64,000 nt of DNA from Candidatus Helarchaeota ASGARD archaeon Hel_GB_B. Its GTDB lineage: Archaea; Asgardarchaeota; Lokiarchaeia; Helarchaeales; HEL-GB-B. This document shows positions 5,411-60,441 of this stretch, in pieces; position 1 is the first letter of the stretch; each line of letters opens with the position of its first letter. The stretch covers positions 2,453-66,452 of the forward strand of contig SUPR01000002.1 of assembly GCA_005191425.1 (NCBI GenBank), read 5' to 3'. Made by a program: the position numbers and the translations under genes. The notes beneath the pieces are model-generated. The model was not told the DNA's origin. It saw only the letters and a list, made by a program, of their open reading frames with translations, and did not search any database.

Positions 5411-7042
5411 ATGAAAGAAAATCCAATAATTTTAGATACTCAAATAAGTAAAGTTGTTTTGTATAGGGATGGCGCAAAAATAGAAAGGAATGGAAATGTA
5501 GCGTTAGAAGTGGGGACTAATGAAATAAAGTTACCTAAAATTTCAAGATTTTGCGATCCAAATAGTATAAGGGTTAGTGGACTAGGTAGCGGTACTCTTG
5601 TAGATATTAAAGTAAATAAAAAATTTCAAGAACAAACAGGATTTCAAAAGTTAGACGAATTAATCAAAAAAAGAAAGGATTTAGAGAAAGAAATTTTTTC
5701 AAACAAAGAAGAATTAGGGTTTATTACCCAACGAAAAAATGATCTTAATCAAATTTTTAAAAATTTTGTAGTAGAGTTTCCAAAATGGTTTTCCAGTGGA
5801 GAAAGCGAGATTAAACGTTTAGAAGATTTAAATTCGCTGACTATAAGTCAGAATAATGAGTTATCATCAAAAATCGGTGAATTAAAACTTAAAATAGAAG
5901 ATTTAGAAAAAAAGTTATCTGTAATTAATGCCGAAATAGATAAAATTAATCGATTACATGATAGAAAAGTCGATGAATATTATGAAATTATAGTGACAAT
6001 TGAATCCGAAAAAAATGAAGAATTTGACCTGAAAGTATCTTATCAAGTAATGAATGCCTTCTGGGAACCGATATATGATGTAAATTTAAGTGAATCCCAA
6101 TGTGAAATAAAATATATGGCATCAATTGTAAATAACACTTTTGAAGATTGGAAAGATGTTGGTTTAGAAGTTTCTACCGCTGTTTTTCAATCAGTAGAAC
6201 TAATTGAACCTGAACCATGGTATATTGATGTATATTATCCTCCACCACCATCACCGCCGCCTAGACGTAAATATGCAATGAAAAAAATGTTGACCAGCGC
6301 CGCAAAGCCTTTAAAAATGGAAGAAAAAGCGGTAGACGAAAGTATGGAAGACGATTTTGTTGAGGAACAACTTGATTATAGACCAGAAATTAAAGAAGAA
6401 ACAGCATCATTTTCAGAAAATGCTACAGGTATCCAAATATTTTCATTACCAAACAAAGTTAATATACCATCAGATGGTAATCCACATCCTATACTTTTAA
6501 CGAAATTTGAATTAGATTCAAGGACTGAATATTATTGGTCTTCAATGAACCCAATTGGAGTAATTGCTCAAAGCATTATAAAAAATGGTGAAACTGTCCT
6601 ATTACCGAGTGAAAAAGTCAAAGTTTTTCATGAAAAAGATTTTGTAGGAGAAACTGCAATTAAGACAATATCGCCATTTGAAGAATTTAAACTGGGTACA
6701 CGATTAAGTTATGATTTAAAAGTAGAAAAGAAACTCTTAAAACGAAAGGCAGAAAAAGCCGGGATTATTAAGGGAAAATTAGGAAAAGATTATACATATT
6801 CCATTATTATCAACAATTTTAAAAAAGATGAAAAGAAAATTACAGTTATTGATAGGATCCCAATGTCGCGCTCAGAACAAATTAAAGTTGCAATTAAAGA
6901 AATTAGTCTTGAACCGAAAAAAGATAATCTAAATATTTTAGTATGGGAATTAACACTAAAACCAGAGGAAACAATTAAAATAAATTATAGTTTTAGTGTA
7001 GAATATGGAAAAGATGTTACTATAGTCCCTCCATTACCATAA
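5411..7042 (+). CDS. DUF4139/MuiA-like protein with central coiled coil and a proline-rich PPPPSPPP linker
   Basis: The N-terminal beta-rich segment (VVLYRDGAKIERNGNVALEVGTNEIKLP) resembles the DUF4140/DUF4139 family. Long heptad-like K/E-rich stretches follow. The assignment is tentative. Confidence 0.35.
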   Translation: MKENPIILDTQISKVVLYRDGAKIERNGNVALEVGTNEIKLPKISRFCDPNSIRVSGLGSGTLVDIKVNKKFQEQTGFQKLDELIKKRKDLEKEIFSNKEELGFITQRKNDLNQIFKNFVVEFPKWFSSGESEIKRLEDLNSLTISQNNELSSKIGELKLKIEDLEKKLSVINAEIDKINRLHDRKVDEYYEIIVTIESEKNEEFDLKVSYQVMNAFWEPIYDVNLSESQCEIKYMASIVNNTFEDWKDVGLEVSTAVFQSVELIEPEPWYIDVYYPPPPSPPPRRKYAMKKMLTSAAKPLKMEEKAVDESMEDDFVEEQLDYRPEIKEETASFSENATGIQIFSLPNKVNIPSDGNPHPILLTKFELDSRTEYYWSSMNPIGVIAQSIIKNGETVLLPSEKVKVFHEKDFVGETAIKTISPFEEFKLGTRLSYDLKVEKKLLKRKAEKAGIIKGKLGKDYTYSIIINNFKKDEKKITVIDRIPMSRSEQIKVAIKEISLEPKKDNLNILVWELTLKPEETIKINYSFSVEYGKDVTIVPPLP

Positions 7043-7303
7043 ATTCTAACAAATACAAAATTCTATTTTTTAACTTTCAACCGACAATTTATATTATTTT
7101 TAATTGAATGTTTTTATTAGAAAATTAAAAGATTTATTTGCAATTTGTAGTAAAATTAACAAGTTATCCATAATTTAAAATGAGTATGTTTTCGGTATTA
7201 ACTAATTAAACTTTTTATAATGCATTTAGATATTTTGTGAAATAATGATTAAAGAAAGATTTAAGACAAATTTTATAAAGTATTTTCATATAATTCTTAA
7301 CAA

Positions 7304-10767: not shown

Positions 10768-10907
10768 TGGGCTCGCTGGGACTTGAACCCAGGAGCTCCC
10801 GCGTTCCGTACATTTAACCGATATAAAATACCCCGGGCGGGAATCATAATCCATTCTAGCTTATATAGAATTAATCTATATTATGAAAGGTGCTAGACCA
10901 CGAGCCC
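10768..10907 (-). tRNA. Intron-containing tRNA (~140 nt); it has a canonical acceptor stem and T-arm, and apparently two introns (D-loop and anticodon region); the isotype is unresolved
   Basis: On the minus strand the 5' end GGGCTCG pairs with the 3' CGAGCCC plus discriminator A. The T-arm is CTGGG-TTCAAGT-CCCAG. About 66 nt are extra relative to a 74-nt tRNA. The anticodon stem CCCGC/GCGGG encloses 33 nt. Confidence 0.55.
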
Positions 10908-34199: not shown

Positions 34200-34330
34200 T
34201 GGACCGGCCGGGAATTTCGTCTAAGTCCACAAAGAAATCCAAACGAATTTCATTTTTTTAGAGGACTAAATTTCGAACCCGGGGCCTCCAGATTGCAAGT
34301 CTGACGATCTACCAACTGATCTACCGGCCC
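34200..34330 (-). tRNA. tRNA-Ala (anticodon UGC) interrupted by a ~58-nt intron inside the T-loop (between positions 59/60)
   Basis: Minus strand reads GGGCCGG-TA-GATC-AGTTGGTA-GATC-G-TCAGA-CTTGCAA-TCTGG-AGGCC-CCGGG-TTCGAA[58 nt]T-CCCGG-CCGGTCC-A. The G3:U70 pair is the alanine identity element. The intron contains a 5-bp internal helix (AGTCC/GGACT). Confidence 0.75.
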
Positions 34331-34570: not shown

Positions 34571-36913
34571 ATGAAAATCGGTGTTTTTATTTGTCATTGC
34601 GGTACTAATATCGCTGGAGTAGTTGATATAGATAGAGTTAAAGAAGAATTAATGGGTTATCCCGATATAGTTATTTTTGATAATCCATATATTTGTTCCA
34701 AAACAGGTCTTTTAGATTTAAAAGAGAAAATTAAACAACATCAATTAGACCGTATTGTAATAGCTGCATGTTCTCCTAAAATGCATGGTAATTTATTTCA
34801 AGACTTATTAAATGAAATTGGAATTAATCGGTTTCTTCTAGAAATAGCAAATATCCGCGAACAAGATTCGTGGGTTCATCATAGTCATCCTGAAGCTGCT
34901 ACAATTAAAGCAATTGATATTATTAAAATGGCTGTTGAAAAAGTTAAAAAATTAGAGCCATTAAAAAGAATCAAAATACAAACAGAGAACCAAGCTCTTG
35001 TAATTGGTGGAGGAATAGCTGGGATAACTGCATCCTTAAAATTAGCAAATTTGGGAATTAAAGTATATTTAGTTGAGAAGAGTCCAAGTATCGGCGGACA
35101 TATGGCAGAATATGATAAAACTTTCCCAACAATGGACTGCGCCATTTGTATATTAGCTCCCCTTATGAGTGAAGTCTCTACAAACCCAAGAATTGAAGTC
35201 CTCGATTATTCTGAAGTTGTCGAGGTAAAAGGTCAAGTGGGTAATTTTGAAGTTACTGTTGAAAAAAAGCCTAGATTTATCGACCCGACCAAATGTATAT
35301 CTGGTTGTATAGAAGACTGTAGTTCTAATTGTCCTATAGAAATTCCTAATGTCTTTAATAGATTTGGTACAAACAAGGCTATTTATATTTCATTTCCGCA
35401 AGCAGTACCATTAATGGCAGCTATTGATAACAATTATTGTATTGGTTGTAGGAGCTGTCAGACATTTTGTAAAAGAGAAGCTATTAATTTTTATCAAGAA
35501 CCCGAGCAAATTAAAATAAAAGTGGGAGTAATTATTGCTGCCATTGGGTTTGAGCCATACGACCCAACTCCACTCGAAGAATATGGATATTCAAGGTACA
35601 AAAATGTTATCACTTCTATTGAATTAGAGCGAATCCTATCACCTTTTGGCCCAACTAAAGGTAAATTATTGAGGCCTTCGGATGGGAAACCTATTAAGAG
35701 AGTTGCATTTATACAGTGTGTAGGAAGCAGAAATGAACAAATTGGACGATTACATTGTTCTGGCGTGTGTTGTATGTCTACTATTAAAGAATCTATTCAA
35801 ATAAAAACAAGAATTCCTGATGCAAATATATCTGTTTTTTATATTGATATCCGGACATATGGAAAAGGTTTTGAAGAATTTTACGAAAATTCACAAGTCA
35901 AATATAATATAAATTATATAAGAGGTAGAGTTGCTGAAATTTACGAAGACCCAACCACTCAAAATTTAATCCTTAGAGCAGAAGACACAAATTTATGCTC
36001 TTTAGTTGAGCTTGAATTTGACTTGGTCGTCCTAGCTATTGGAATAGACCCTCCAAAAGATATTGATAAATTGACTAACATACTAAATATTTCAAAATCA
36101 TCAGATGGTTTTTTTCAAGCAAGACACCCAAAACTAAGGCCGGAAGAGTCGACTCTTCAAGGTGTATATTTAGCAGGATGTGCACATGGACCTAAAAATA
36201 TTCATGAAACTGTTATTCATGCAAAAGCAGCGGCGGTTGAATCTGCGTCCATTATTCAAAAAGGAGAAATAATGATCGATCCAATTGCCTCTAAAATTGA
36301 CTATGAAAAATGTATTAATTGTAAATTATGCATGAAAGTCTGTGATTCTAAAGCTATTCGGGAAATAGATAAGAAAATTGTTATTAATGAAGCCAATTGC
36401 CTTGGTTGTGGTGCATGTGCAGCTGCATGTCCAACTGGTGCATTAAACATCCCCAATTTTACTAATGAACAAATAATATCCCAAATTTCTGCATTAAAAA
36501 AGAGTGATTATCCCTATATTGTAGGTTTTTTCTGCAACTGGTGTGCCTATAATGCAGCCGATTTAGCAGGGGTTATGAGAGTAGAATATCCACCAAACCT
36601 TAGAATTGTTCGCGTGATGTGCGCCAGTATGGTAAGTCCTAAATATATAATTGAAGCATTTCAGAATGGTGCAGACGGTGTTTTGGTCGTTGGTTGTTAT
36701 GAAAATGATTGTCATTATCGTACTGGATTTACAAAAGCATTACATCGAATAAAAATTATGAAAGAAATGTTGAACCAATTTGGTATTAATAATAAAAGAC
36801 TAAAGATCGACAGTGCCAGCGCAAGTGAAGGAATAAAAATTAAGGAGATAGTAGAGAATTTTATTAATGAAATAAAAGATTTAGGGCCGATAGGCACTGA
36901 AATTATAAAATGA
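34571..36913 (+). CDS. hdrA: Heterodisulfide reductase subunit A fused to a C-terminal MvhD domain (HdrA2-type)
   Basis: N-terminal IGVFICHCGTNI, plus RIVIAACSPKMHG, EIANIREQDSWVHH and KSPSIGGHMAEYDKTFPTMDCAICILAP, all typical of HdrA. C-terminal FFCNWCAYNAADLAGV...VVGCYENDCHY is the MvhD/FlpD domain. Confidence 0.85.
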   Translation: MKIGVFICHCGTNIAGVVDIDRVKEELMGYPDIVIFDNPYICSKTGLLDLKEKIKQHQLDRIVIAACSPKMHGNLFQDLLNEIGINRFLLEIANIREQDSWVHHSHPEAATIKAIDIIKMAVEKVKKLEPLKRIKIQTENQALVIGGGIAGITASLKLANLGIKVYLVEKSPSIGGHMAEYDKTFPTMDCAICILAPLMSEVSTNPRIEVLDYSEVVEVKGQVGNFEVTVEKKPRFIDPTKCISGCIEDCSSNCPIEIPNVFNRFGTNKAIYISFPQAVPLMAAIDNNYCIGCRSCQTFCKREAINFYQEPEQIKIKVGVIIAAIGFEPYDPTPLEEYGYSRYKNVITSIELERILSPFGPTKGKLLRPSDGKPIKRVAFIQCVGSRNEQIGRLHCSGVCCMSTIKESIQIKTRIPDANISVFYIDIRTYGKGFEEFYENSQVKYNINYIRGRVAEIYEDPTTQNLILRAEDTNLCSLVELEFDLVVLAIGIDPPKDIDKLTNILNISKSSDGFFQARHPKLRPEESTLQGVYLAGCAHGPKNIHETVIHAKAAAVESASIIQKGEIMIDPIASKIDYEKCINCKLCMKVCDSKAIREIDKKIVINEANCLGCGACAAACPTGALNIPNFTNEQIISQISALKKSDYPYIVGFFCNWCAYNAADLAGVMRVEYPPNLRIVRVMCASMVSPKYIIEAFQNGADGVLVVGCYENDCHYRTGFTKALHRIKIMKEMLNQFGINNKRLKIDSASASEGIKIKEIVENFINEIKDLGPIGTEIIK

Positions 36914-43113: not shown

Positions 43114-43184
43114 CATCTATAAAAACATTAAAATTTATAAATTATAATGTGATTTATCAAAACAAAAATTGAGGTATTAATGTA

Positions 43185-51570: not shown

Positions 51571-53871
51571 ATGGAAAATAGAACAAAAAAATATTTTAAT
51601 CATAAATTACTTAAGAAGGACAAAATAGAATATAGAGCATATCAAGAAGCTATAATGGGGGCATGTGCAAACAAAAATAGTCTTGTAGTCCTACCTACTG
51701 GACTGGGAAAAACTATTATTGCAATTTTAATATGTATTGTTAGGTTACATAAATATCCTGGTTCTCAAATAATTTTTCTTGCCCCTACTAAACCATTGAT
51801 TCAACAACATTATCAAACTTTTAAAGAGTTATCAAATTTTAATGAAGACCAAATGGTATTGATAACTGGAGCAATTTCACCTGAAAAAAGAGTTAATTTA
51901 TATAAAACAGGTCAGTTTTTTTTTATTACACCTCAAACTTTACAAAATGATATTATTAATTCGAGAATTGACCTTTCCAATGTTTCTCTTATTGTTTTCG
52001 ATGAAGCGCACCGAGCTATTGGTAATTATGCTTATGTTTTAATAGCCGAAAAATACATAACAAATGCTAAATTTCCCCAAATTTTAGCAATAACCGCATC
52101 TCCTGGCTCAATTAAAGAAAAAATACTTGAAATAATTGAAAATTTACATATTAAAAAAATTGAAGTTAGAACTGAAGATAGTCCTGATGTTAAACCTTTT
52201 ATTCAACCAATTGAATTAAAATGGCTAAGAATTGATCTGCCTAAGGAATTTAACGAAATTAAGAACATTCTAGAAACTAAATTAAAAGAATGTTTATTAA
52301 TTCTAAAGAAAAATGCATTGATAAATAGTATAAATATTTCCTCTATAAATAGAACTGATTTAATTAAATTACAAAAATCATTACCTCGTAAAATTCAAGA
52401 GGCTAATGAAAATAAACAAGAACTTTTTGAAAGTTTAAGAACAGTAGCAATAGCTATTAGATTTTCATATATGCTTGAATTACTTGAAACCCAAGGAATT
52501 TCATCTCTCTCCAGATATTTAGATAAACTTTATGAAGACTCTTCAAAAAAAGATTCATCAAGAACAATTAGGGATTTAATGTCACAACCATTTATGAATA
52601 AAATTAATCAAATTTCTAAAAATCTAATAAAAAAAGGAGTTGAACATCCTAAAATCCCTATACTTCAAGATTTACTTGAAAAACAATTTAGAAAAAAGCC
52701 TGAATCCCGCGTGATTATCTTTTGCCATTTCAGAGTTACCACTAAAACATTAGAAAAAATATTTCAAGATAATCCTATAATTAAAGCTGCGAGATTTGTA
52801 GGCCAACAAACTAAAACTGGTGATAAAGGGCTCTCTCAAAAAGACCAAATTATAATCTTGGACAACTTTAAATCTGGAATATATAATACCTTAATAGCTA
52901 CATCTGTAGCTGAGGAAGGATTAGATATTGCTGAATGTGATATGATCATATTTTATGACACCGTTCCTAGCGCTATTAGAGATATTCAGCGCCGCGGTAG
53001 AACAGGAAGAAAAAAACCAGGTAAAGTAATCATTTTAACTGCAAAAAATACTCGTGATGAAAGTTATTATTGGGTCTCTTATAGTAAAAAGAAAAAAATG
53101 AAATCATTACTTGATGATTTGATCGAAATTTCTCAAAAATTAGATGCACAAGCAAAAAGTCATACTCAAACCTCAATCTCTGATTTTATTATAAAAAATA
53201 AGAAAAAAAATAATGAAAAACAAGATATTAAAATTCAGATAATTGTTGATTCACGCGAATCTTCTTCCTCTATCTTGAAGCATCTTTCAAAAATGGGCGC
53301 TGATATAAAAATTGAAAAATTAGATATTGGCGATTATATTCTATCTGACAAAGTTGCTATTGAAAGAAAAACGGTAAATGACCTCATCAATTCAATCATA
53401 GATTCACGATTATTCAAAGAATTAAAATCTTTAAAAAGCGTATATTTAAAGACATTCCTAGTTATTGAAGGCGAAATTATTTATGAATTTTCTAGAATCC
53501 GAAAAGAAGCGTTACAAGGCGCTATTGTTTCTGTTATGCTTGATTTCTATGTACCAGTTATTTTTACAAAATCTCCCGAAGAAACAGCTGAATGGTTATA
53601 TAAATTAGCTAAAAAAGAACAGATTAAAGGTAAAAAACCGCTCATTAGACCTGATAAAACCCCTCTCTCATATAATATAAAAAGAATACAAGAATTTATT
53701 CTCGCAGGATTCCCCGATATTGACAGTAAACGCGCCCAAGATTTATTAAATTATTTTGGTAGTCTAGAAGAAATTTTTAATGCTCCTATTGAAGCATTAA
53801 TGAATGTAAAAGGAATTGGTAAAAAAATTGCCAAACAAATAAAGGAAATCTTAAAAGCCAAATATTTTTAA
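51571..53871 (+). CDS. hef: Hef: SF2 helicase fused to ERCC4/XPF-type nuclease and HhH2 domains
   Basis: Helicase motif I LPTGLGKT and DEAH-like FDEAH. The C-terminus has the ERCC4 nuclease motif (VAIERKTVNDL, GD...) and a terminal HhH pair (NVKGIGKKIAKQI). Confidence 0.85.
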   Translation: MENRTKKYFNHKLLKKDKIEYRAYQEAIMGACANKNSLVVLPTGLGKTIIAILICIVRLHKYPGSQIIFLAPTKPLIQQHYQTFKELSNFNEDQMVLITGAISPEKRVNLYKTGQFFFITPQTLQNDIINSRIDLSNVSLIVFDEAHRAIGNYAYVLIAEKYITNAKFPQILAITASPGSIKEKILEIIENLHIKKIEVRTEDSPDVKPFIQPIELKWLRIDLPKEFNEIKNILETKLKECLLILKKNALINSINISSINRTDLIKLQKSLPRKIQEANENKQELFESLRTVAIAIRFSYMLELLETQGISSLSRYLDKLYEDSSKKDSSRTIRDLMSQPFMNKINQISKNLIKKGVEHPKIPILQDLLEKQFRKKPESRVIIFCHFRVTTKTLEKIFQDNPIIKAARFVGQQTKTGDKGLSQKDQIIILDNFKSGIYNTLIATSVAEEGLDIAECDMIIFYDTVPSAIRDIQRRGRTGRKKPGKVIILTAKNTRDESYYWVSYSKKKKMKSLLDDLIEISQKLDAQAKSHTQTSISDFIIKNKKKNNEKQDIKIQIIVDSRESSSSILKHLSKMGADIKIEKLDIGDYILSDKVAIERKTVNDLINSIIDSRLFKELKSLKSVYLKTFLVIEGEIIYEFSRIRKEALQGAIVSVMLDFYVPVIFTKSPEETAEWLYKLAKKEQIKGKKPLIRPDKTPLSYNIKRIQEFILAGFPDIDSKRAQDLLNYFGSLEEIFNAPIEALMNVKGIGKKIAKQIKEILKAKYF

Positions 53872-54256: not shown

Positions 54257-56002
54257 TTATAAAATTGAGCCACATTCCGGACAAATTCGTGCAAATAAGG
54301 TTATAGGCGCCTTACAATGTGGACAAACTTTTAAAGGCTTTTTACATTCAGGACAAATTTTCTCCATCATAAAAACCACACTTTTACAATGTGGACAAAT
54401 AGCCTTAGCACCAATTATAGTTGGTTTAGTTGGCTTTTCTTCCAATTCAGTTTTTTCAATTTCTTTAATTTTTAAATAATCATCTAGGCTAGATTCTTCA
54501 ATTGTTTTTTGCTCGTCAATAGATTTTAACTCTTCTTGCTCTTTTTGCGAATCTGTTGACACAGCTTGTTGTTTTTCTTCAGTTTTAGCTAGAACATCTG
54601 TTAATTTTGATAGTGTTTCATCTAATGGCTTTATTGTTTCATTTACTTGTTCTTGTACTTCTGCTTTTGGAATTTCTTTTTCTTCAGTAATTGGCATGGC
54701 TATTGGCATTTCTGGCGATTTTGTAACAATTGGCTCGGCTTTTTCTTGTGTTTCAATACCCATTAAATCACTTGCTTTTGCAGCTTCAAATTTCTCCGGC
54801 TGCTCTACTACTTCTGATTGTTCAATCGGTTCAGTCTCATTCATAATATTCATTAAATCATTAAATAATTCTTCATTTACTTCTTCAGCTACCATCACTT
54901 CAACATCTGATCCACTCGCTGGTTTCATCGGTATATCCAAGACTTCTTGCTTAGAAATTTCTTCGGGGATAGGGGCTGCTTTTGGTGCGCTTGGAATTTC
55001 TTCGGGGATAGGGGCTGCTTTTGGTGCGCTTGGAATTTCTTCAAGAATTGATGTAATATTTGATTTATGTGATTGTTCTGTTTCTGGTGTAATTGATGTG
55101 GTAGGTTGCACTAAAGGTGGGGGATTAGACAAAGGAACTTGATTTGTAGCAGATGGCGGAATAAAAGGCGAAATTGGATCTGTATTTTTTAATAAATTGT
55201 TTATATCATCATATATTTCATCCATTGTAGGCTGTTTTATAGTTATTGGTGGTACAACAGGGCTTGGGGCTTCAGGTGTCTTTGGTATCTCTTTTTCTGA
55301 AACTTTTAATTCAGCATGAGTAATTTTAGGAGCTTCTTTTTTAACAACCTCCTCTTTTTTTGGTTCTTTTTTAGCTTGTTCTCCCTCCATTACAATAATT
55401 CTTTTTAATTTTATCCAACCTTTTTTCTGATATTTTTTAATTATTTCATCGACTTTTAATCTTGGAAGATTTGTTTTTTCACAAATATCTTCTATTGTAT
55501 TTTTACCATCAATTAAATGAATTACTTTTGCTTCAATCATAGAAAATTTCTTTCTTTCAATTCCATCCAATTTAATAGGTACTCTATATGCTGTCTTCTC
55601 AACTTGTTTAGATTTTCCTTTTTCTAATTTCATATCAATAAATTTGTCAATATAATCTGAATATTTGTGCATGCGGCCTTTAAATGCCAGTAATTGACCT
55701 ACTGGGCCACTTTCTGAATAAAGGACTATCATAGCTTTTTCTGAAAGTTTAAAAAATCCGATATTTACACCTGAAAGAGGTAAGCTATGTTCTCCAACAT
55801 CTAGGACGCTAAAATTTCCTGCGGCAAATGATTTTATAAAATCAGCATATTTTTCTTCAAGAACTGGATCAATATACTTCAAATTATTATTATTATCAAT
55901 AATCCCGATTTGTATTGGGTTTGATAATAATTTTCTCATATCATTTGCGATTTTTTTTACAATATCTTCGAGTGAATTAATATTTTCGATTTCCTCGCTC
56001 AT
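54257..56002 (-). CDS. Multidomain protein: N-terminal Roadblock/LC7-like domain, winged-helix segment, long Pro/Glu-rich low-complexity linker with tandem repeats, C-terminal double Zn-ribbon
   Basis: N-terminal IQIGIIDNNNNLKYID...NIGFFKLSEKAMIVLYSESGPVGQLL fits the Roadblock/LC7 alternating pattern. The C-terminus has CPHCKS...CPECKKPLKVCPHCKAP...CPECGS. Confidence 0.45.
   Translation of the reverse strand: MSEEIENINSLEDIVKKIANDMRKLLSNPIQIGIIDNNNNLKYIDPVLEEKYADFIKSFAAGNFSVLDVGEHSLPLSGVNIGFFKLSEKAMIVLYSESGPVGQLLAFKGRMHKYSDYIDKFIDMKLEKGKSKQVEKTAYRVPIKLDGIERKKFSMIEAKVIHLIDGKNTIEDICEKTNLPRLKVDEIIKKYQKKGWIKLKRIIVMEGEQAKKEPKKEEVVKKEAPKITHAELKVSEKEIPKTPEAPSPVVPPITIKQPTMDEIYDDINNLLKNTDPISPFIPPSATNQVPLSNPPPLVQPTTSITPETEQSHKSNITSILEEIPSAPKAAPIPEEIPSAPKAAPIPEEISKQEVLDIPMKPASGSDVEVMVAEEVNEELFNDLMNIMNETEPIEQSEVVEQPEKFEAAKASDLMGIETQEKAEPIVTKSPEMPIAMPITEEKEIPKAEVQEQVNETIKPLDETLSKLTDVLAKTEEKQQAVSTDSQKEQEELKSIDEQKTIEESSLDDYLKIKEIEKTELEEKPTKPTIIGAKAICPHCKSVVFMMEKICPECKKPLKVCPHCKAPITLFARICPECGSIL
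54953..55043 (-). repeat. 39-bp tandem repeat (about 2.3 copies) inside the CDS, encoding EEIPSAPKAAPIP units
   Basis: Direct repeat CTTCGGGGATAGGGGCTGCTTTTGGTGCGCTTGGAATTT visible on the plus strand. Confidence 0.6.
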
Positions 56003-56783: not shown

Positions 56784-56885
56784 GGGCCGGTGATCTAGAA
56801 GCAATATATCGGCAATATTATTGGAAATCGGTATGATATCGCCCTCACGCGGCGAAAATCGTGGGTTCAATTCCCACCCGGCCCA
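56784..56885 (+). tRNA. tRNA-Val (anticodon CAC) interrupted by a ~29-nt intron in the D-loop
   Basis: GGGCCGG-TG-ATCT-AG[~29 nt]TC-GGTA-TGAT-A-TCGCC-CTCACGC-GGCGA-AAATC-GTGGG-TTCAATT-CCCAC-CCGGCCC-A. All stems pair. 102 nt total against a 73-nt mature length. Confidence 0.75.
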
Positions 56886-56909
56886 TAATACTCCAAGAGG
56901 TGAATAACA

Positions 56910-57104
56910 ATTCCAGTAGAAATAAAAGATGAAAATAAATTATTAAAAATTGCAAAAGATTCGACAGAATGCAAAGTTATTAGAGTTGGCGATAAGGTAA
57001 AAATAAAAGTTAGAGGTACAAAATATTTATATACTTATATTACGAATCCTAAATCTTCTGAAGAACTTTTAAAAAAGATCCCTTGTAAAATTATCGAATT
57101 ATAA
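56910..57104 (+). CDS. rpl38e: Ribosomal protein L38e; not in the ORF track because it has no ATG, and the probable start is AUU
   Basis: Translation (I/M)PVEIKDENKLLKIAKDSTECKVIRVGDKVKIKVRGTKYLYTYITNPKSSEELLKKIPCKIIEL matches L38e (MPKQIEEIKDF...VKFKVRCSRYLYTL...). AGGTGA Shine-Dalgarno at 56898-56903 lies 6 nt before ATT. An in-frame TGA sits directly upstream. Confidence 0.65.
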   Translation: MPVEIKDENKLLKIAKDSTECKVIRVGDKVKIKVRGTKYLYTYITNPKSSEELLKKIPCKIIEL

Positions 57105-58016
57105 TAACCAAAATATTAGAAATACTATACCAAAAAAGCCTATGCCAATCCCAATTGAAAGTGGTAGTCCTGGTAATATCTCTCTTTTTTCTAATAATTT
57201 GAATGTAATGATTGCTCCTATTAAAATTCCTATTACGCTTGCAATACATGGTAAAAAAATTGCTATAATTCCATATTGACTAATAAAGGGTGTTTCAAAC
57301 CCAATTTTTAGTGCAGAACAAGTTAACATAGAATAAAAAGTTAAATCACCAAGTCCTATTTCATAATCTTGCATAGAATAACTCATTTCAAATGCAAAAC
57401 TATTCTTTTTTTCATTAAGCTCAATAATTTTCTTGATAGGACCTTTAAAAACAGCAATAATATCGTAAATTGCAAGTCCTATTAATAGTAAAAAACTGGT
57501 CCAGTTTGGTAAAATGAGGCCTAAAAAAGAACCTATTAACCCCCCATAAATTAATAGACTTGCATTTTTAATTTTAACATTTTTAGAAAATTTATCATGA
57601 AAAATCGCTAAAGTCAAGGCAACTCCTGATAAAAAACTTACAATAATGACTATAAAAAATGATAATAAATCTGAAATTGAAAAGATATACAATATACTTA
57701 ATCCAAAAAGAAATAATATCAGTCCACTAATGAAAACAAAACTTATGAAGAAAAAATGTTTTAAAAATTTCTCCTTTTTATATTTCAAAAGTAAATAAAT
57801 TATAAACCCACCAAAACTAGCAATTATTATCAAAATCATTGCATTAATCACCCCTATTAAAGGGTTCAAGTTTCCTTGGTTCTCAGGGATGAACGCTGCA
57901 TTAAAATCGAAAAAACCTGAAATTAAGCCAACAATAGAAAAACCAATTGCTATAAACATTGTTATAATTAACGGAACTAACCTTTTTCGAGTTTTTACTA
58001 CGATTTCAGAAATCAA
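57099..58016 (-). CDS. Presenilin/signal-peptide-peptidase-like intramembrane aspartyl protease (A22 family homolog)
   Basis: Polytopic membrane protein with YD (LAIYDIIAVF) and GxGD (EIGLGDLTFYS) motifs, plus a PAL-like PGLP motif near the C-terminus. Confidence 0.5.
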   Translation of the reverse strand: MISEIVVKTRKRLVPLIITMFIAIGFSIVGLISGFFDFNAAFIPENQGNLNPLIGVINAMILIIIASFGGFIIYLLLKYKKEKFLKHFFFISFVFISGLILFLFGLSILYIFSISDLLSFFIVIIVSFLSGVALTLAIFHDKFSKNVKIKNASLLIYGGLIGSFLGLILPNWTSFLLLIGLAIYDIIAVFKGPIKKIIELNEKKNSFAFEMSYSMQDYEIGLGDLTFYSMLTCSALKIGFETPFISQYGIIAIFLPCIASVIGILIGAIITFKLLEKREILPGLPLSIGIGIGFFGIVFLIFWLL

Positions 58017-58205: not shown

Positions 58206-59495
58206 TCACAAAATTTGAAATTCTTCGCCTAAATTAGGTACAAAAGTCGATATACCTTTCTCTTCCATAGCTGAATAAAGACCATCTGTATTATCTTCAT
58301 CGCCATGCACTATAAAAAACGTAGTATTTCCATTGGATTTATTATGTATATAATCTACAAATGAGAGTAATTCCGATTTTCCACTATGGGACGAAAGCGG
58401 AAAATGTTTTATTTCTGCTTTAATTTTGGTTTTTCCGTCCTTCCAAATTTGTGTTTCTAAAATCTGTCGCCCAAGAGTATCTGGTAATTGAAATGAAACC
58501 AAATAGATTGCATTATCTGGATTGTTTATAAGCTCTTCAGAATAAAAAATTGCGGTCCCGCCTTTTAACATTCCCGAAGGTGCTATTATAACCCCTGGAT
58601 TTGAAACTGCATTTTGGCGCTCTAAATGCTTGTTTTTTCCAACAGAAATAAAATATGAATTTTCAACAGCATTTCTATATAATTCTTCGTCTCTCAATAT
58701 TTCTAGATGATTTAATAATGCTCTACTTACACTCCGAGCCATCCCATCTACATATACTGGAAATTTCACATTATAATGGTGCAAAATACACATTATTTCC
58801 TGCGACCTACCTACTCCAAAAGCGGGTACAAGAACAGTGCCGTTTTTTGATACAACTATATTCTCAATTGCGCTAACAAAATCCTTTTCTACTTCTACTC
58901 TAGGTGGATGGTCTGAATTTCCATATGTCGACTCCATAATTACATAATCTATTTTAGGAAAATTGTTGCTCATCCCATTTAGTAATCGAGTGGTCCTATG
59001 ATTAACATCGCCTGTATATAATATTCTTTTACCATTTATTTTACATATAAATGATGCACTCCCTGGAATATGACCTGCATCTATAATTAAAAATTCAATT
59101 CCCTTCAAATGGTGCCATAAAGTTTGATTATAGGAAAATAAAGATGTTTTATTTATCATGTCCATTAATTCATTGCGCATAAATGGTAGATAATATTCTG
59201 ATAATCTTAACATATCATCAATTAAGATTTTCGATAGAACTCTTGTCGTAGGTGTCATTATTAGAATTGGGCTTTTTGACCCACTAAAAAATAATGGCAA
59301 TCCTCCAGAATGATCTAAATGAGCATGACTCAAAAATATTATGTCTAAATTTTTTACATCAAAATCTAATGGCGGTAAAGTTGGCTTTTTGTCCATTAAT
59401 ATCCCATAATCGAACAAATATACCCTATTTTTACTTTCTAATTCTATTGCTTGTCCGCCTATTTGTTTACATCCACCTATAAATTTCAGTTTCAA
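58206..59495 (-). CDS. Metallo-beta-lactamase / beta-CASP family ribonuclease (aCPSF2-like)
   Basis: LSHAHLDHSGGLP (HxHxDH motif 2), further Asp/His motifs, and a beta-CASP-length C-terminal half. Confidence 0.7.
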   Translation of the reverse strand: MKLKFIGGCKQIGGQAIELESKNRVYLFDYGILMDKKPTLPPLDFDVKNLDIIFLSHAHLDHSGGLPLFFSGSKSPILIMTPTTRVLSKILIDDMLRLSEYYLPFMRNELMDMINKTSLFSYNQTLWHHLKGIEFLIIDAGHIPGSASFICKINGKRILYTGDVNHRTTRLLNGMSNNFPKIDYVIMESTYGNSDHPPRVEVEKDFVSAIENIVVSKNGTVLVPAFGVGRSQEIMCILHHYNVKFPVYVDGMARSVSRALLNHLEILRDEELYRNAVENSYFISVGKNKHLERQNAVSNPGVIIAPSGMLKGGTAIFYSEELINNPDNAIYLVSFQLPDTLGRQILETQIWKDGKTKIKAEIKHFPLSSHSGKSELLSFVDYIHNKSNGNTTFFIVHGDEDNTDGLYSAMEEKGISTFVPNLGEEFQIL

Positions 59496-59694: not shown

Positions 59695-60441
59695 ATGGAT
59701 GAACCAGTAGATTTAGAACTAAATATAATTTTAAAAAGAGAATATGATTTTTCTGGTTTTAATTTAATTACAGGGTTCCATGGAATAGGTGCATGTGGAT
59801 TTATAACGGTCAGACACATAGTAGAGTCATTAAAATGCGAAAGAATCGGATTTATAGAAACTGAAATGCTCCCTGCGTTAGTTTCGCTTGAAAATAATCG
59901 CTTAATACTACCATTTGAATTATATATGTACGAAAAAAACGTAATTTTTTTACCACGATTTCAACCCTATCGAGCTGAACAACGAATTATCGCCAGAAAT
60001 ATTTCCAATTGGGCAATTGAAAATAATTTTAAACAAGCATTTTTAATTGGAGGACTTGACTCTAAATTTAAAAAAGATGGCGATAATAATTGCAGGATCG
60101 TGCCAACTTCAGCTGCTACTGATTTAATAAAAGACCATGATAATATTACCTTGCTAGAAAAAGGTCTGTTTGTTACTGGACCTCTTGCGTTATTTCTGTC
60201 ATATTTTGAAATTCAGAACTTTGCTGCAATTGCTATACTTCCATATTCAAATCGTGAGCGTCCAGATCCAAGAGCAAGTGCTGAAGCTATAAAAACATTG
60301 GGAAGTTTTATTGATGGACTACAGATAGATATTGAGTCATTGTTAAAAGATGCAGAAAGAATTGAAGCAGAAATCGAGGAAATATTCTTACAAGGAGAAA
60401 ATGATGAAGGTTCAAGTGAAAAACATAGAATGTATATTTAA
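59695..60441 (+). CDS. PAC2-family proteasome assembly chaperone
   Basis: The N-terminal NLITGFHGIGACGFITVRHIVESL pattern is typical of archaeal PAC2 (PF09754). ~250 aa. Confidence 0.6.
   Translation: MDEPVDLELNIILKREYDFSGFNLITGFHGIGACGFITVRHIVESLKCERIGFIETEMLPALVSLENNRLILPFELYMYEKNVIFLPRFQPYRAEQRIIARNISNWAIENNFKQAFLIGGLDSKFKKDGDNNCRIVPTSAATDLIKDHDNITLLEKGLFVTGPLALFLSYFEIQNFAAIAILPYSNRERPDPRASAEAIKTLGSFIDGLQIDIESLLKDAERIEAEIEEIFLQGENDEGSSEKHRMYI

What the first reader, a model, noticed from the sequence alone, without database searches (positions are those of the whole stretch)
56784..56885. tRNA-Val(CAC) with a ~29-nt intron in the D-loop
A perfect acceptor, anticodon (CTCACGC loop) and T-arm are present, but the D-arm is split: ATCTAG ... 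[29 nt] ... TCGGTATGAT. This is the same architecture as the D-loop interruption in the tRNA at 10768-10907. Recurrent D-loop introns imply a lineage-specific pattern of intron gain or transposition.
Basis: seen in the sequence. Interest (0 to 1): 0.5.

Follow-up and report, generated by a model that had tools for sequence, protein, structure and literature searches.

The report
Intron in an archaeal tRNA-Val D-loop
This is a real tRNA-Val gene from an Asgard (Helarchaeota) archaeon, interrupted in its D-loop by a ~30-base intron of the known enzyme-spliced archaeal type; it is an ordinary though nicely documented example in a lineage whose tRNA genes carry many introns.

Summary
Window 56784-56885 (+) is a tRNA-Val(CAC) gene whose D-loop carries an AT-rich insert. 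Default tRNA finders miss it. Cutting the insert out gives a normal 72-nt tRNA.

The genome is a Candidatus Helarchaeota (Asgard archaeon). Five diverged relatives keep an insert at the same place, with unrelated sequence but conserved pairing between the exon and the 3' end of the intron. An intron-less orthologue (L013) is sister to an intron-bearing one (L012). It fixes the most likely junction at position 15/16, giving a 30-nt intron at window 56799-56828.

The motif is a relaxed bulge-helix-bulge (hBH/BHL-like) with no outer helix. It is the kind cut by broad-specificity (αβ)2 splicing endonucleases, which have been reported in Asgard archaea.

The second D-loop intron, in tRNA-Pro(GGG) at 10768-10907 (-), is also real. 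It sits two nucleotides further 3' (17/17a) and shows no sequence similarity to the Val intron, so transposition is not supported. The third tRNA in the window, Ala(UGC), has a 59/60 intron.

Verdict: a new member of a known kind, of modest interest.

The parts
56784..56885 (+). tRNA-Val(CAC) gene: pre-tRNA body of 102 nt, discriminator A73, no encoded CCA
   Evidence: Sequence. ARAGORN with introns allowed. The spliced form is called tRNA-Val by default ARAGORN. The intron-less orthologue L013 scores 63.1 bits over the full Rfam tRNA model.
56784..56798 (+). 5' exon, tRNA positions 1-15: acceptor 5' strand, U8, G9, D-stem 5' strand AUCU, A14, G15
   Evidence: Invariant or compensatory across 6 sequences. 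The junction is set by comparison with intron-less L013.
56799..56828 (+). D-loop intron, 30 nt (AAGCAATATATCGGCAATATTATTGGAAAT), between positions 15 and 16. The alternative register is 56800-56827 (28 nt, 16/17).
   Evidence: Removing it gives the D loop AGCGGTA, identical to L013. Intron-bearing L012 and intron-less L013 are sisters, 88% identical over 3.8 kb. The registers are compared. The intron is 27% G+C and the exons about 61% (counted from the sequence).
56793..56796 (+). Exon strand of the central helix H (tRNA nt 10-13, AUCU), which pairs with intron 56823-56826
   Evidence: Pairs 11:-4, 12:-5 and 13:-6 are standard pairs in 6 of 6 sequences. Pair 10:-3 forms only in L003 and is A×A elsewhere.
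56823..56826 (+). Intron strand H' of the central helix (GGAA). It is followed by the 3' splice-site trinucleotide AU|C at 56827-56829.
56800..56822 (+). Intron hairpin (inner helix h). A17:U39 and G18·U38 are followed by a C×A mismatch and 5 A-U pairs, with a 7-nt loop.
   Evidence: The two pairs next to the 5' bulge are kept in all lineages with changing identities: AU4/GC1/GU1 and GU3/GC2/AU1. A hairpin is present in every orthologue with unrelated sequence.
56829..56885 (+). 3' exon, tRNA positions 16-73. The anticodon CAC lies at 56846-56848.
10768..10907 (-). tRNA-Pro(GGG) gene with two introns: a 37-nt D-loop intron at 17/17a (window 10854-10890) and a 27-nt intron at 37/38 (window 10804-10830)
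   Evidence: The intron-less D arm of orthologue L017 (AGCATGGATTA) equals the product predicted by the BHB cutting rule.
34200..34330 (-). tRNA-Ala(UGC) gene (G3·U70) with a 58-nt intron at 59/60 in the T loop (window 34214-34271); strict hBHBh' motif
   Evidence: Rfam tRNA hit of 31.7 bits that skips the T arm. Sequence. The spliced form is called tRNA-Ala by ARAGORN. BHB pairs.

Best explanation
The region is the functional tRNA-Val(CAC) gene of a Helarchaeota (Asgard) archaeon. It is transcribed as a 102-nt precursor body carrying a 30-nt intron between D-loop positions 15 and 16.

In the precursor, the D-stem 5' strand (nt 10/11-13) does not form the D stem. It pairs with the 3' end of the intron (GGAA) to make the short central helix of a bulge-helix-bulge-like motif. 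The intron's own hairpin stacks on the other side, so A14-G15-N16 forms a 3-nt bulge that holds the 5' splice site. The 3' splice site lies two nucleotides past the helix on the other strand, in an unpaired stretch with no outer helix. This is a relaxed hBH / bulge-helix-loop type.

The archaeal tRNA splicing endonuclease, which in Asgard archaea is reported as the broad-specificity (αβ)2 type with the L1/CSL loop, would cut both sites. An RtcB-type ligase would join the exons, and the D arm would then refold into a normal 72-nt tRNA with D loop AGCGGUA; CCA is added afterwards.

Shown here: the gene, the insert, conservation of its position, the conserved pairings, and its precise absence in a sister lineage. 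Inferred: the cleavage and ligation themselves, the enzyme, and the exact junction.
For: 1. The exons reconstitute a full cloverleaf. Default ARAGORN calls the spliced sequence tRNA-Val(CAC). It differs from intron-less orthologue L013 at 10 positions, and the stem differences fall as three pairs that preserve base-pairing plus one G:C to G·U change. L013 scores 63.1 bits over model positions 1-71 of Rfam's tRNA family.
2. Six sequences from five lineages carry a 30-32-nt insert at the same place. In these sequences the acceptor, anticodon and T stems are 100% paired and four stem pairs show double (compensatory) changes. The structure beats all 500 shuffles and every slid control.
3. The intron sequence is free to drift: most orthologous intron pairs are no more alike than shuffles. 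Even so, exon nt 11-13 always pair with intron -4..-6, and the two inner-helix pairs next to the bulge are kept through A:U, G:C and G·U changes.
4. L012 (with intron) and L013 (without) are 88% identical over 3.8 kb, while all other pairs are 66-72%. Deleting exactly 30 nt reproduces the L013 D arm: identical for the window and one transition for L012.
5. The same cutting rule (a cut after the second nucleotide 3' of a 4-position helix) exactly predicts the intron-less Pro orthologue L017. It also gives strict hBHBh' motifs for the 37/38 and 59/60 introns of the same genome and its relatives.
6. The context is archaeal and Asgard: Hef, presenilin, aCPSF-like β-CASP, PAC2 and L38e, with closest homologues named Candidatus Helarchaeota.
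7. Literature. Asgard archaea carry an (αβ)2 EndA with the L1 loop (PMC5829648). 92-95% of tRNA genes in other Asgard genomes have introns, often non-canonical and multiple (PMC11291895). D-loop introns are spliced in vivo and in vitro in A. pernix tRNA-Thr (PMC3241643), and a D-loop intron is known in M. kandleri tRNA-Glu at 20b/21 (PMC5829648).
Against: - No RNA data, so splicing and the junction are inferred.
- The motif is weak in the window's own sequence. The central helix is 3 bp plus an A×A mismatch, the outer helix is absent, and the isolated fragment has no stable fold at 37 °C (-1.3 kcal/mol, z=+1.4).
- A strict BHB scan found no canonical motif that gives a normal D loop.
- A competing pairing (A14:U39, G15·U38) gives a 4-bp helix in a register shifted by one (16/17), broken only in L004/L006.
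- The endonuclease of this genome was not seen. Twenty window ORFs scanned against Pfam contained no EndA or RtcB.
- Whether the genome has another tRNA-Val(CAC) copy is unknown.
Confidence: 0.85

Rival explanations
1. It is the same enzyme-spliced intron, but the register is shifted by one. The central helix would be nt 11-14 with intron UGGA, the cuts would fall after nt 16 and before U45, the intron would be 28 nt (56800-56827, position 16/17), and the mature tRNA would be 74 nt with D loop AGAUCGGUA.
For: This register gives a full 4-bp central helix in 5 of 6 sequences (95.8% of cells paired), against 79% for the 15/16 register. The more distant intron-less or D-loop-intact Val orthologues have 9-nt D loops: L005 AGTCTGGTA and L015 AGCTGGCTA. 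The MFE fold of the L009 fragment uses nt 11-14.
Against: A14 faces C in L004/L006, where G17:C restores the pairing required by the 15/16 register. It would also make intron-less sister L013 (AGCGGTA) differ from spliced L012 (AGAATGGTA) by a 2-nt deletion plus a substitution, rather than by one transition. The Pro case shows that intron absence in that lineage is exact.
Confidence: 0.25
2. The two D-loop introns, in Val and Pro, are copies of one mobile or transposed intron, as described for Thermoproteales.
For: Both sit in the D loop just after the shared exon sequence UCUAG. Both end with a YURG-AA motif that pairs with that exon sequence. Intron transposition between tRNA genes has been proposed in Thermoproteales (Fujishima 2010, as cited in PMC4090602 and PMC4033280).
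Against: There is no sequence similarity beyond chance (score 4.0 against 4.5±1.6 for shuffles, p=0.72). The lengths differ (30 vs 37 nt) and so do the junctions (15/16 vs 17/17a). The shared 3' motif is explained by the need to pair with the same conserved exon sequence. Because orthologous introns also drift beyond recognition, an old common origin cannot be excluded.
Confidence: 0.1
3. It is a decaying pseudogene: a tRNA-Val copy disrupted by a random insertion, with the function provided by another copy.
For: Standard tRNA finders reject it. The rest of the genome was not available to look for a second copy.
Against: The interrupted gene is kept at the same locus in five lineages that are only about 70% identical in flanking DNA. 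The anticodon arm is unchanged, the stems are 100% paired and show compensatory changes. The insert keeps its pairing to the exon while its sequence drifts. The other two tRNA genes in the window are also interrupted.
Confidence: 0.04
4. The insert is not removed, and the mature tRNA keeps an expanded D-loop hairpin.
For: None directly; only the weakness of the BHB motif in the window sequence.
Against: A 37-nt D loop would break the G18-G19/T-loop core interactions. The sister lineage L013 dispenses with the insert precisely. The insert always pairs with the D-stem strand in the way splice motifs do.
Confidence: 0.03

Closest known systems
Non-canonical archaeal tRNA introns with relaxed BHB motifs (hBH / HBh' / BHL), known from Crenarchaeota, Thermoproteales and Nanoarchaeota (Marck & Grosjean 2003 and Sugahara 2008, as reviewed in PMC4090602)
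   Same: A short protein-spliced intron outside position 37/38. The exon pairs with the 3' end of the intron to form the central helix. There is a 3-nt bulge at the 5' site, and the predicted cuts fall two nucleotides 3' of the helix on each strand. The intron sequence is free apart from the pairing. One gene can hold several introns.
   Different: The host is an Asgard (Helarchaeota) archaeon. The central helix is only 3 bp plus an A×A mismatch in four of five lineages, and no outer helix closes the 3' site. Position 15/16 is not among the examples listed in the review text I read (20/21, 22/23, 25/26 ...); I could not check the full published position tables.
D-loop introns of Aeropyrum pernix pre-tRNA-Thr(UGU) and Methanopyrus kandleri pre-tRNA-Glu(UUC) at 20b/21 (PMC3241643, PMC5829648)
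   Same: The intron lies inside the D loop and so disrupts the tRNA core in the precursor. Removal was demonstrated for those cases with (αβ)2 EndA carrying the CSL/L1 loop.
   Different: The A. pernix intron has a full BHB and the M. kandleri one an HBh' motif. Here the closed bulge is the 5' one (hBH-like). No biochemical or RNA evidence exists for the present case.
Intron-rich tRNA gene sets of Asgard archaea (Atabeyarchaeia, Freyarchaeia; PMC11291895)
   Same: An Asgard lineage in which introns are frequent, non-canonical and multiple, and are missed by standard predictors. All three tRNA genes in this 64-kb window are interrupted, with four introns in total.
   Different: That report concerns other Asgard classes. 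The text I read gives no D-loop junctions or comparative presence/absence analysis.
Intron transposition in Thermoproteales (Fujishima et al. 2010, cited in PMC4090602 and PMC4033280)
   Same: Lineage-specific spread of introns to many tRNA positions.
   Different: Its defining signature is near-identical intron sequences in different tRNA genes. That signature was tested here for the Val/Pro pair and not found.

Membership tests
Archaeal endonuclease-spliced (BHB-type) tRNA intron | The exons alone reconstitute a complete, conserved tRNA cloverleaf | tested here: met
   The spliced 72-nt sequence is called tRNA-Val(CAC) by default ARAGORN. Intron-less orthologue L013 scores 63.1 bits in Rfam. 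Stems are 100% paired with compensatory changes.
Archaeal endonuclease-spliced (BHB-type) tRNA intron | A central 4-bp helix formed by the 5' exon and the 3' end of the intron | tested here: inconclusive
   In the 15/16 register, three pairs are conserved in 6 of 6 sequences and the fourth position is A×A in 5 of 6. In the 16/17 register, four pairs form in 5 of 6 sequences.
Archaeal endonuclease-spliced (BHB-type) tRNA intron | The 5' splice site lies in a 3-nt bulge flanked by the central helix and an intron helix | tested here: met
   A14-G15-N16 lies between helix 11-13 and inner pairs 17:-7 and 18:-8, which are kept in all lineages with covariation. The MFE fold of the L003 fragment shows exactly this arrangement.
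Archaeal endonuclease-spliced (BHB-type) tRNA intron | The 3' splice site lies in a 3-nt bulge closed by an outer helix h' (strict hBHBh') | tested here: not met
   The outer positions are G×G, U·G and G·U, so no helix forms. The motif is therefore a relaxed hBH/BHL type, not strict BHB. The Pro 17/17a and L005 Val 51/52 introns also lack h', whereas the 37/38 and 59/60 introns have it.
Archaeal endonuclease-spliced (BHB-type) tRNA intron | Position conserved among relatives, sequence drifting, and precise absence in some orthologues | tested here: met
   Five lineages carry the insert at the same place. The intron sequences are mostly unalignable. L013 lacks exactly the 30 nt.
Archaeal endonuclease-spliced (BHB-type) tRNA intron | The genome encodes a splicing endonuclease able to cut relaxed motifs, i.e. 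(αβ)2 with the L1/CSL loop, or ε2 | not tested
   Only 64 kb of the genome was available. Twenty ORFs scanned against Pfam contained no EndA. The literature reports an (αβ)2 enzyme with L1 in four Asgard genomes (PMC5829648).
Archaeal endonuclease-spliced (BHB-type) tRNA intron | Spliced RNA is observed, or the precursor is cleaved in vitro | not testable with these tools
   No transcript data were accessible.
Transposed tRNA introns (Thermoproteales type) | Highly similar intron sequences in different tRNA genes of one genome | tested here: not met
   The Val and Pro D-loop introns score 4.0 against a shuffle mean of 4.5 (p=0.72). Only one pair could be tested.
Group I / group II self-splicing introns | A conserved ribozyme core of hundreds of nucleotides | tested here: not met
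   The insert is 30 nt. Rfam finds no intron family in the window at gathering score or at E≤5.
Split or permuted tRNA genes | The tRNA parts are encoded at separate loci or in permuted order | tested here: not met
   Both exons are collinear and 30 nt apart on one strand.

The most novel reading that the evidence does not exclude
Helarchaeota D-loop introns of this type have only one closed bulge, a 3-bp central helix and no outer helix. They may lie outside the substrate range shown so far for archaeal EndA (BHB, HBh', BHL). If so, the Asgard enzyme would recognise them in a broader or different way, for example by partly using the tRNA body as eukaryotic TSEN does. The L012/L013 and window/L017 pairs would then be natural snapshots of exact, probably cDNA-mediated, loss of tRNA introns.
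Probability: 0.12. Interest if true: 0.55.

Novelty: new member of a known kind. Interest (0 to 1): 0.3.

Why it matters
The result shows that a Helarchaeota genome, like other recently described Asgard lineages, hides its tRNA genes behind non-canonical introns that default tools miss. ARAGORN finds none of the three tRNA genes in this window. That affects genome completeness and tRNA-set estimates for Asgard MAGs.

The comparative set assembled here is five intron-bearing lineages plus an intron-less sister, for two different tRNAs. It gives exact junctions without RNA data. It also supplies concrete relaxed-motif substrates for testing the specificity of the Asgard splicing endonuclease, the closest archaeal relative of the eukaryotic TSEN complex. 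It does not reveal a new kind of element.

Tried and rejected
- **Strict BHB scan of the pre-tRNA.** The best-scoring motif (p=30, q=52) leaves a 17-nt D loop and was rejected. No canonical hBHBh' motif is compatible with a normal tRNA.
- **ARAGORN on all deletions.** Almost any 23-37-nt deletion in the D region is called tRNA-Val, so this cannot place the junction.
- **Register 17/17a-like for Val (H = nt 12-15, 26-nt intron).** It gives an 11-nt D loop with six nucleotides between A14 and G18, and A14×C in L004. Rejected.
It does not satisfy the symmetric cutting rule and differs from L013 by an indel.
- **Single-sequence thermodynamic folding.** It is informative for L003, L004 and L009, but gives nothing stable for the AT-rich window and L012 fragments.
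- **MAFFT alignment of full precursors.** It put the junction nucleotides out of register. I replaced it with equal-length constructs anchored at both junctions.
- **Pattern scans of genome and metagenome collections.** They gave 3 false positives (L007, L008, L010: an upstream TCTAG followed by an intron-less tRNA-Val) and 3 true hits (L006, L009, L011).
- **Pfam scan of 20 window ORFs for EndA, RtcB or archease.** None was found.
- **Supplement of PMC11291895.** It lists intron coordinates for other Asgard genomes, but gave no D-loop positions that could be compared directly.

Full report
**What is there**

Window 56784-56885 (+) reads GGGCCGG-UG-AUCU-AG[30 nt]CGGUA-UGAU-A-UCGCC-CUCACGC-GGCGA-AAAUC-GUGGG-UUCAAUU-CCCAC-CCGGCCC-A. 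The acceptor, anticodon and T arms are perfect, and the D arm is split by an AT-rich insert.

The window is 28.5% G+C. The exons are about 61% G+C and the insert 27%, counted from the sequence. Default ARAGORN finds no tRNA in the whole window. Rfam at gathering score finds only a different tRNA, at 34274-34330. In E-value mode Rfam gives a partial, just sub-threshold hit at 56823-56879 (28.7 bits against 29). ARAGORN with introns allowed and a lowered threshold calls tRNA-Val(cac) at exactly 56784-56885.

**Whose genome**

The neighbouring genes are archaeal and Asgard-like:
- a Hef helicase/nuclease (51571-53871);
- a presenilin-type protease (57099-58016, minus strand);
- a β-CASP RNase (58206-59495, minus strand);
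- PAC2 (59695-60441);
- ribosomal protein L38e directly downstream of the tRNA.

The same DNA is on record in NCBI assembly GCA_054387055.1 and in an ENA metagenome assembly. The closest presenilin homologues are named Candidatus Helarchaeota.

**Comparative evidence**

The presenilin / rpl38e / tRNA-Val arrangement is conserved, which let me collect orthologous tRNA genes.
- Six sequences from five lineages carry a 30-32-nt insert at the same D-loop place: window and L011, L003, L004 and L006, L009, L012. Their flanking DNA is only about 68-72% identical.
- The insert sequences are mostly no more alike than shuffled controls. Window against L003, L004 and L009 is not significant, while window-L012 and L004-L009 still are.
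- The exons are nearly invariant. On an alignment anchored at both junctions, the acceptor, anticodon and T stems are 100% paired and four pairs show changes on both sides. The structure exceeds all 500 shuffles and all slid controls on the paired-cell and covariation measures.

This is a functional gene under tRNA constraints, not a decaying copy.

**Distribution**

A more distant Helarchaeota relative (L005, presenilin 47% identical) has an intact D loop. It carries a strict 16-nt 37/38 intron and a 32-nt 51/52 intron instead. L015 has an intron-less tRNA-Val(CAC) with encoded CCA in the opposite orientation.

Within the intron-bearing clade, L013 lacks the insert entirely. It scores 63.1 bits over the full Rfam tRNA model, with a 7-nt D loop AGCGGUA. 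L013 is the sister of intron-bearing L012, at 88% identity over 3.8 kb. The intron was therefore present in the clade's ancestor and was lost recently, and apparently exactly, in L013.

**Anatomy and junction**

In every lineage the exon sequence U11-C12-U13 pairs with the intron 3' end (6 of 6 sequences). Adjacent alternative pairings allow three registers. I calibrated the cutting rule on clear cases from the same genomes. In those cases a 4-position helix is cut after the second nucleotide 3' of it on each strand:
- L005 Val 37/38, window Ala 59/60 and the Pro 37/38 introns are strict hBHBh' motifs;
- the Pro D-loop intron is h-B-H with a perfect CUAG:CUAG helix;
- for Pro, the predicted product (D loop AGCAUGGAUUA) is exactly the sequence of intron-less orthologue L017.

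Applied to Val, the 15/16 register has H = nt 10-13, a 5' bulge A14-G15|N and a 3' trinucleotide NN|Y16. It removes 30 nt (56799-56828) and yields a D arm identical to L013. It is also the only register in which both pairs next to the 5' bulge are kept in all lineages through changes: 17:-7 is AU4/GC1/GU1 and 18:-8 is GU3/GC2/AU1.

Its weaknesses are real. The fourth helix position is A×A in all lineages but L003, and there is no outer helix. The 16/17 register (28 nt) has a better 4-bp helix, but it is broken in L004/L006 and fits L013 poorly. I put 15/16 at roughly 60-70% and 16/17 at about 25%.

**Mechanism**

The motif is a relaxed hBH / bulge-helix-loop type. Such motifs are cut by (αβ)2 or ε2 splicing endonucleases carrying an extra loop (PMC3241643, PMC4090602). 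Asgard archaea are reported to have the (αβ)2 enzyme with the L1 loop (PMC5829648).

The inferred pathway has four steps:
1. In the precursor, the D-stem 5' strand is sequestered by the intron.
2. The endonuclease cuts at 15/16 and after intron nt 30.
3. An RtcB-type ligase joins the exons.
4. The D arm refolds and CCA is added, since none is encoded.

None of these steps is shown here. I found no EndA or RtcB among 20 window ORFs, and no RNA data were available.

**The second D-loop intron and the transposition idea**

Window 10768-10907 (-) is tRNA-Pro(GGG). It has a 37-nt D-loop intron at 17/17a (10854-10890) and a 27-nt 37/38 intron (10804-10830). Orthologues L018 and L019 keep a D-loop intron at the same site, with different sequence and length (21 and 35 nt), and L017 lacks it.

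The Val and Pro D-loop introns thus differ in site (by two nucleotides) and in length. They show no sequence similarity (p=0.72). Their common 3' motif follows from pairing with the shared exon sequence UCUAG. Recurrent D-loop introns are real and lineage-specific, but transposition has no positive support. It also cannot be excluded, because these introns drift fast.

**Comparison with what is known, and verdict**

Non-canonical, multiple and D-loop tRNA introns are well known in Crenarchaeota, Nanoarchaeota and M. kandleri. Very high intron loads were reported for other Asgard classes in 2024 (PMC11291895). This case is a new member of that kind in Helarchaeota.

All three tRNA genes in the 64-kb window are interrupted, with four introns in total. 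The third gene is tRNA-Ala(UGC) at 34200-34330 (-), with a 58-nt 59/60 intron.

Interest is modest. The useful by-products are the exact presence/absence pairs (L012 against L013 for Val, window against L017 for Pro) and a set of weak-motif substrates for testing Asgard EndA specificity.

Noticed in passing
window 56897-57104 (+): The rpl38e gene starts 12 nt after the tRNA and has no ATG, GTG or TTG start. After the in-frame TGA at 56901-56903 come ATA ACA ATT CCA GTA GAA, preceded by a perfect Shine-Dalgarno GAGGTGA (56897-56903). The ATT at 56910 aligns with the ATG-Pro start of orthologues L003, L005, L014 and L015. L009, L012 and L013 also have ATT there behind an in-frame stop, while L004 has an ATG two codons upstream. 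This points to a conserved non-canonical ATT (or ATA) start.
   Followed up: partly
window 10768-10907 (-); L017, L018, L019: tRNA-Pro(GGG) has C rather than the near-universal U at position 33 (anticodon loop CCGGGGC after splicing) in the window, L017 and L019. L018 has U33. The partner in the 37/38 intron's central helix changes with it: C33:G against U33:A.
   Followed up: partly
window 34200-34330 (-): tRNA-Ala(UGC) with the G3·U70 identity pair carries a 58-nt intron at 59/60 in the T loop (34214-34271), in a strict hBHBh' motif. It is the only tRNA that Rfam detects at gathering score, and only by skipping the T arm.
   Followed up: yes
L013 and L017 (both JGI metagenome 3300034152): Contigs from the same metagenome lack both D-loop introns (Val and Pro) exactly but keep the Pro 37/38 intron. 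If they come from one organism, that lineage has selectively and precisely lost its D-loop introns.
   Followed up: partly
window 56784-57104 and loci L003, L004, L009, L012, L013: tRNA-Val(CAC) and rpl38e are tightly linked on the same strand in the whole clade, with no T-rich stretch between them (roughly 10-35 nt between the tRNA 3' end and the rpl38e ribosome-binding site). This suggests co-transcription, with the tRNA processed off the 5' end of the rpl38e mRNA.
   Followed up: no
L005 ~7180-7300 (-), L015 4333-4406 (+): More distant Helarchaeota have the syntenic tRNA-Val(CAC) in other states. L005 has a 16-nt strict 37/38 intron plus a 32-nt 51/52 intron in the T stem. L015 is intron-less, inverted, and has an encoded CCA.
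   Followed up: partly
window 35929-36040 (-), 6157-6251 (-), 43139-43175 (+): Weak sub-threshold Rfam matches to C/D-box snoRNA families (26.7 bits, E=0.23; and 26.1 bits, E=2.8) and to a CRISPR repeat family (27 bits, E=2.1). They are probably chance, although archaeal C/D sRNAs would be plausible here.
   Followed up: no
window 54257-56002 (-): The 581-aa protein upstream of the tRNA has a proline- and glutamate-rich low-complexity middle containing a direct repeat (…IPSAPKAAPIPEE… twice) and C-terminal CxxC zinc-ribbon motifs. Its orthologues are annotated with the DZR domain and vary from 509 to 694 aa.
   Followed up: no
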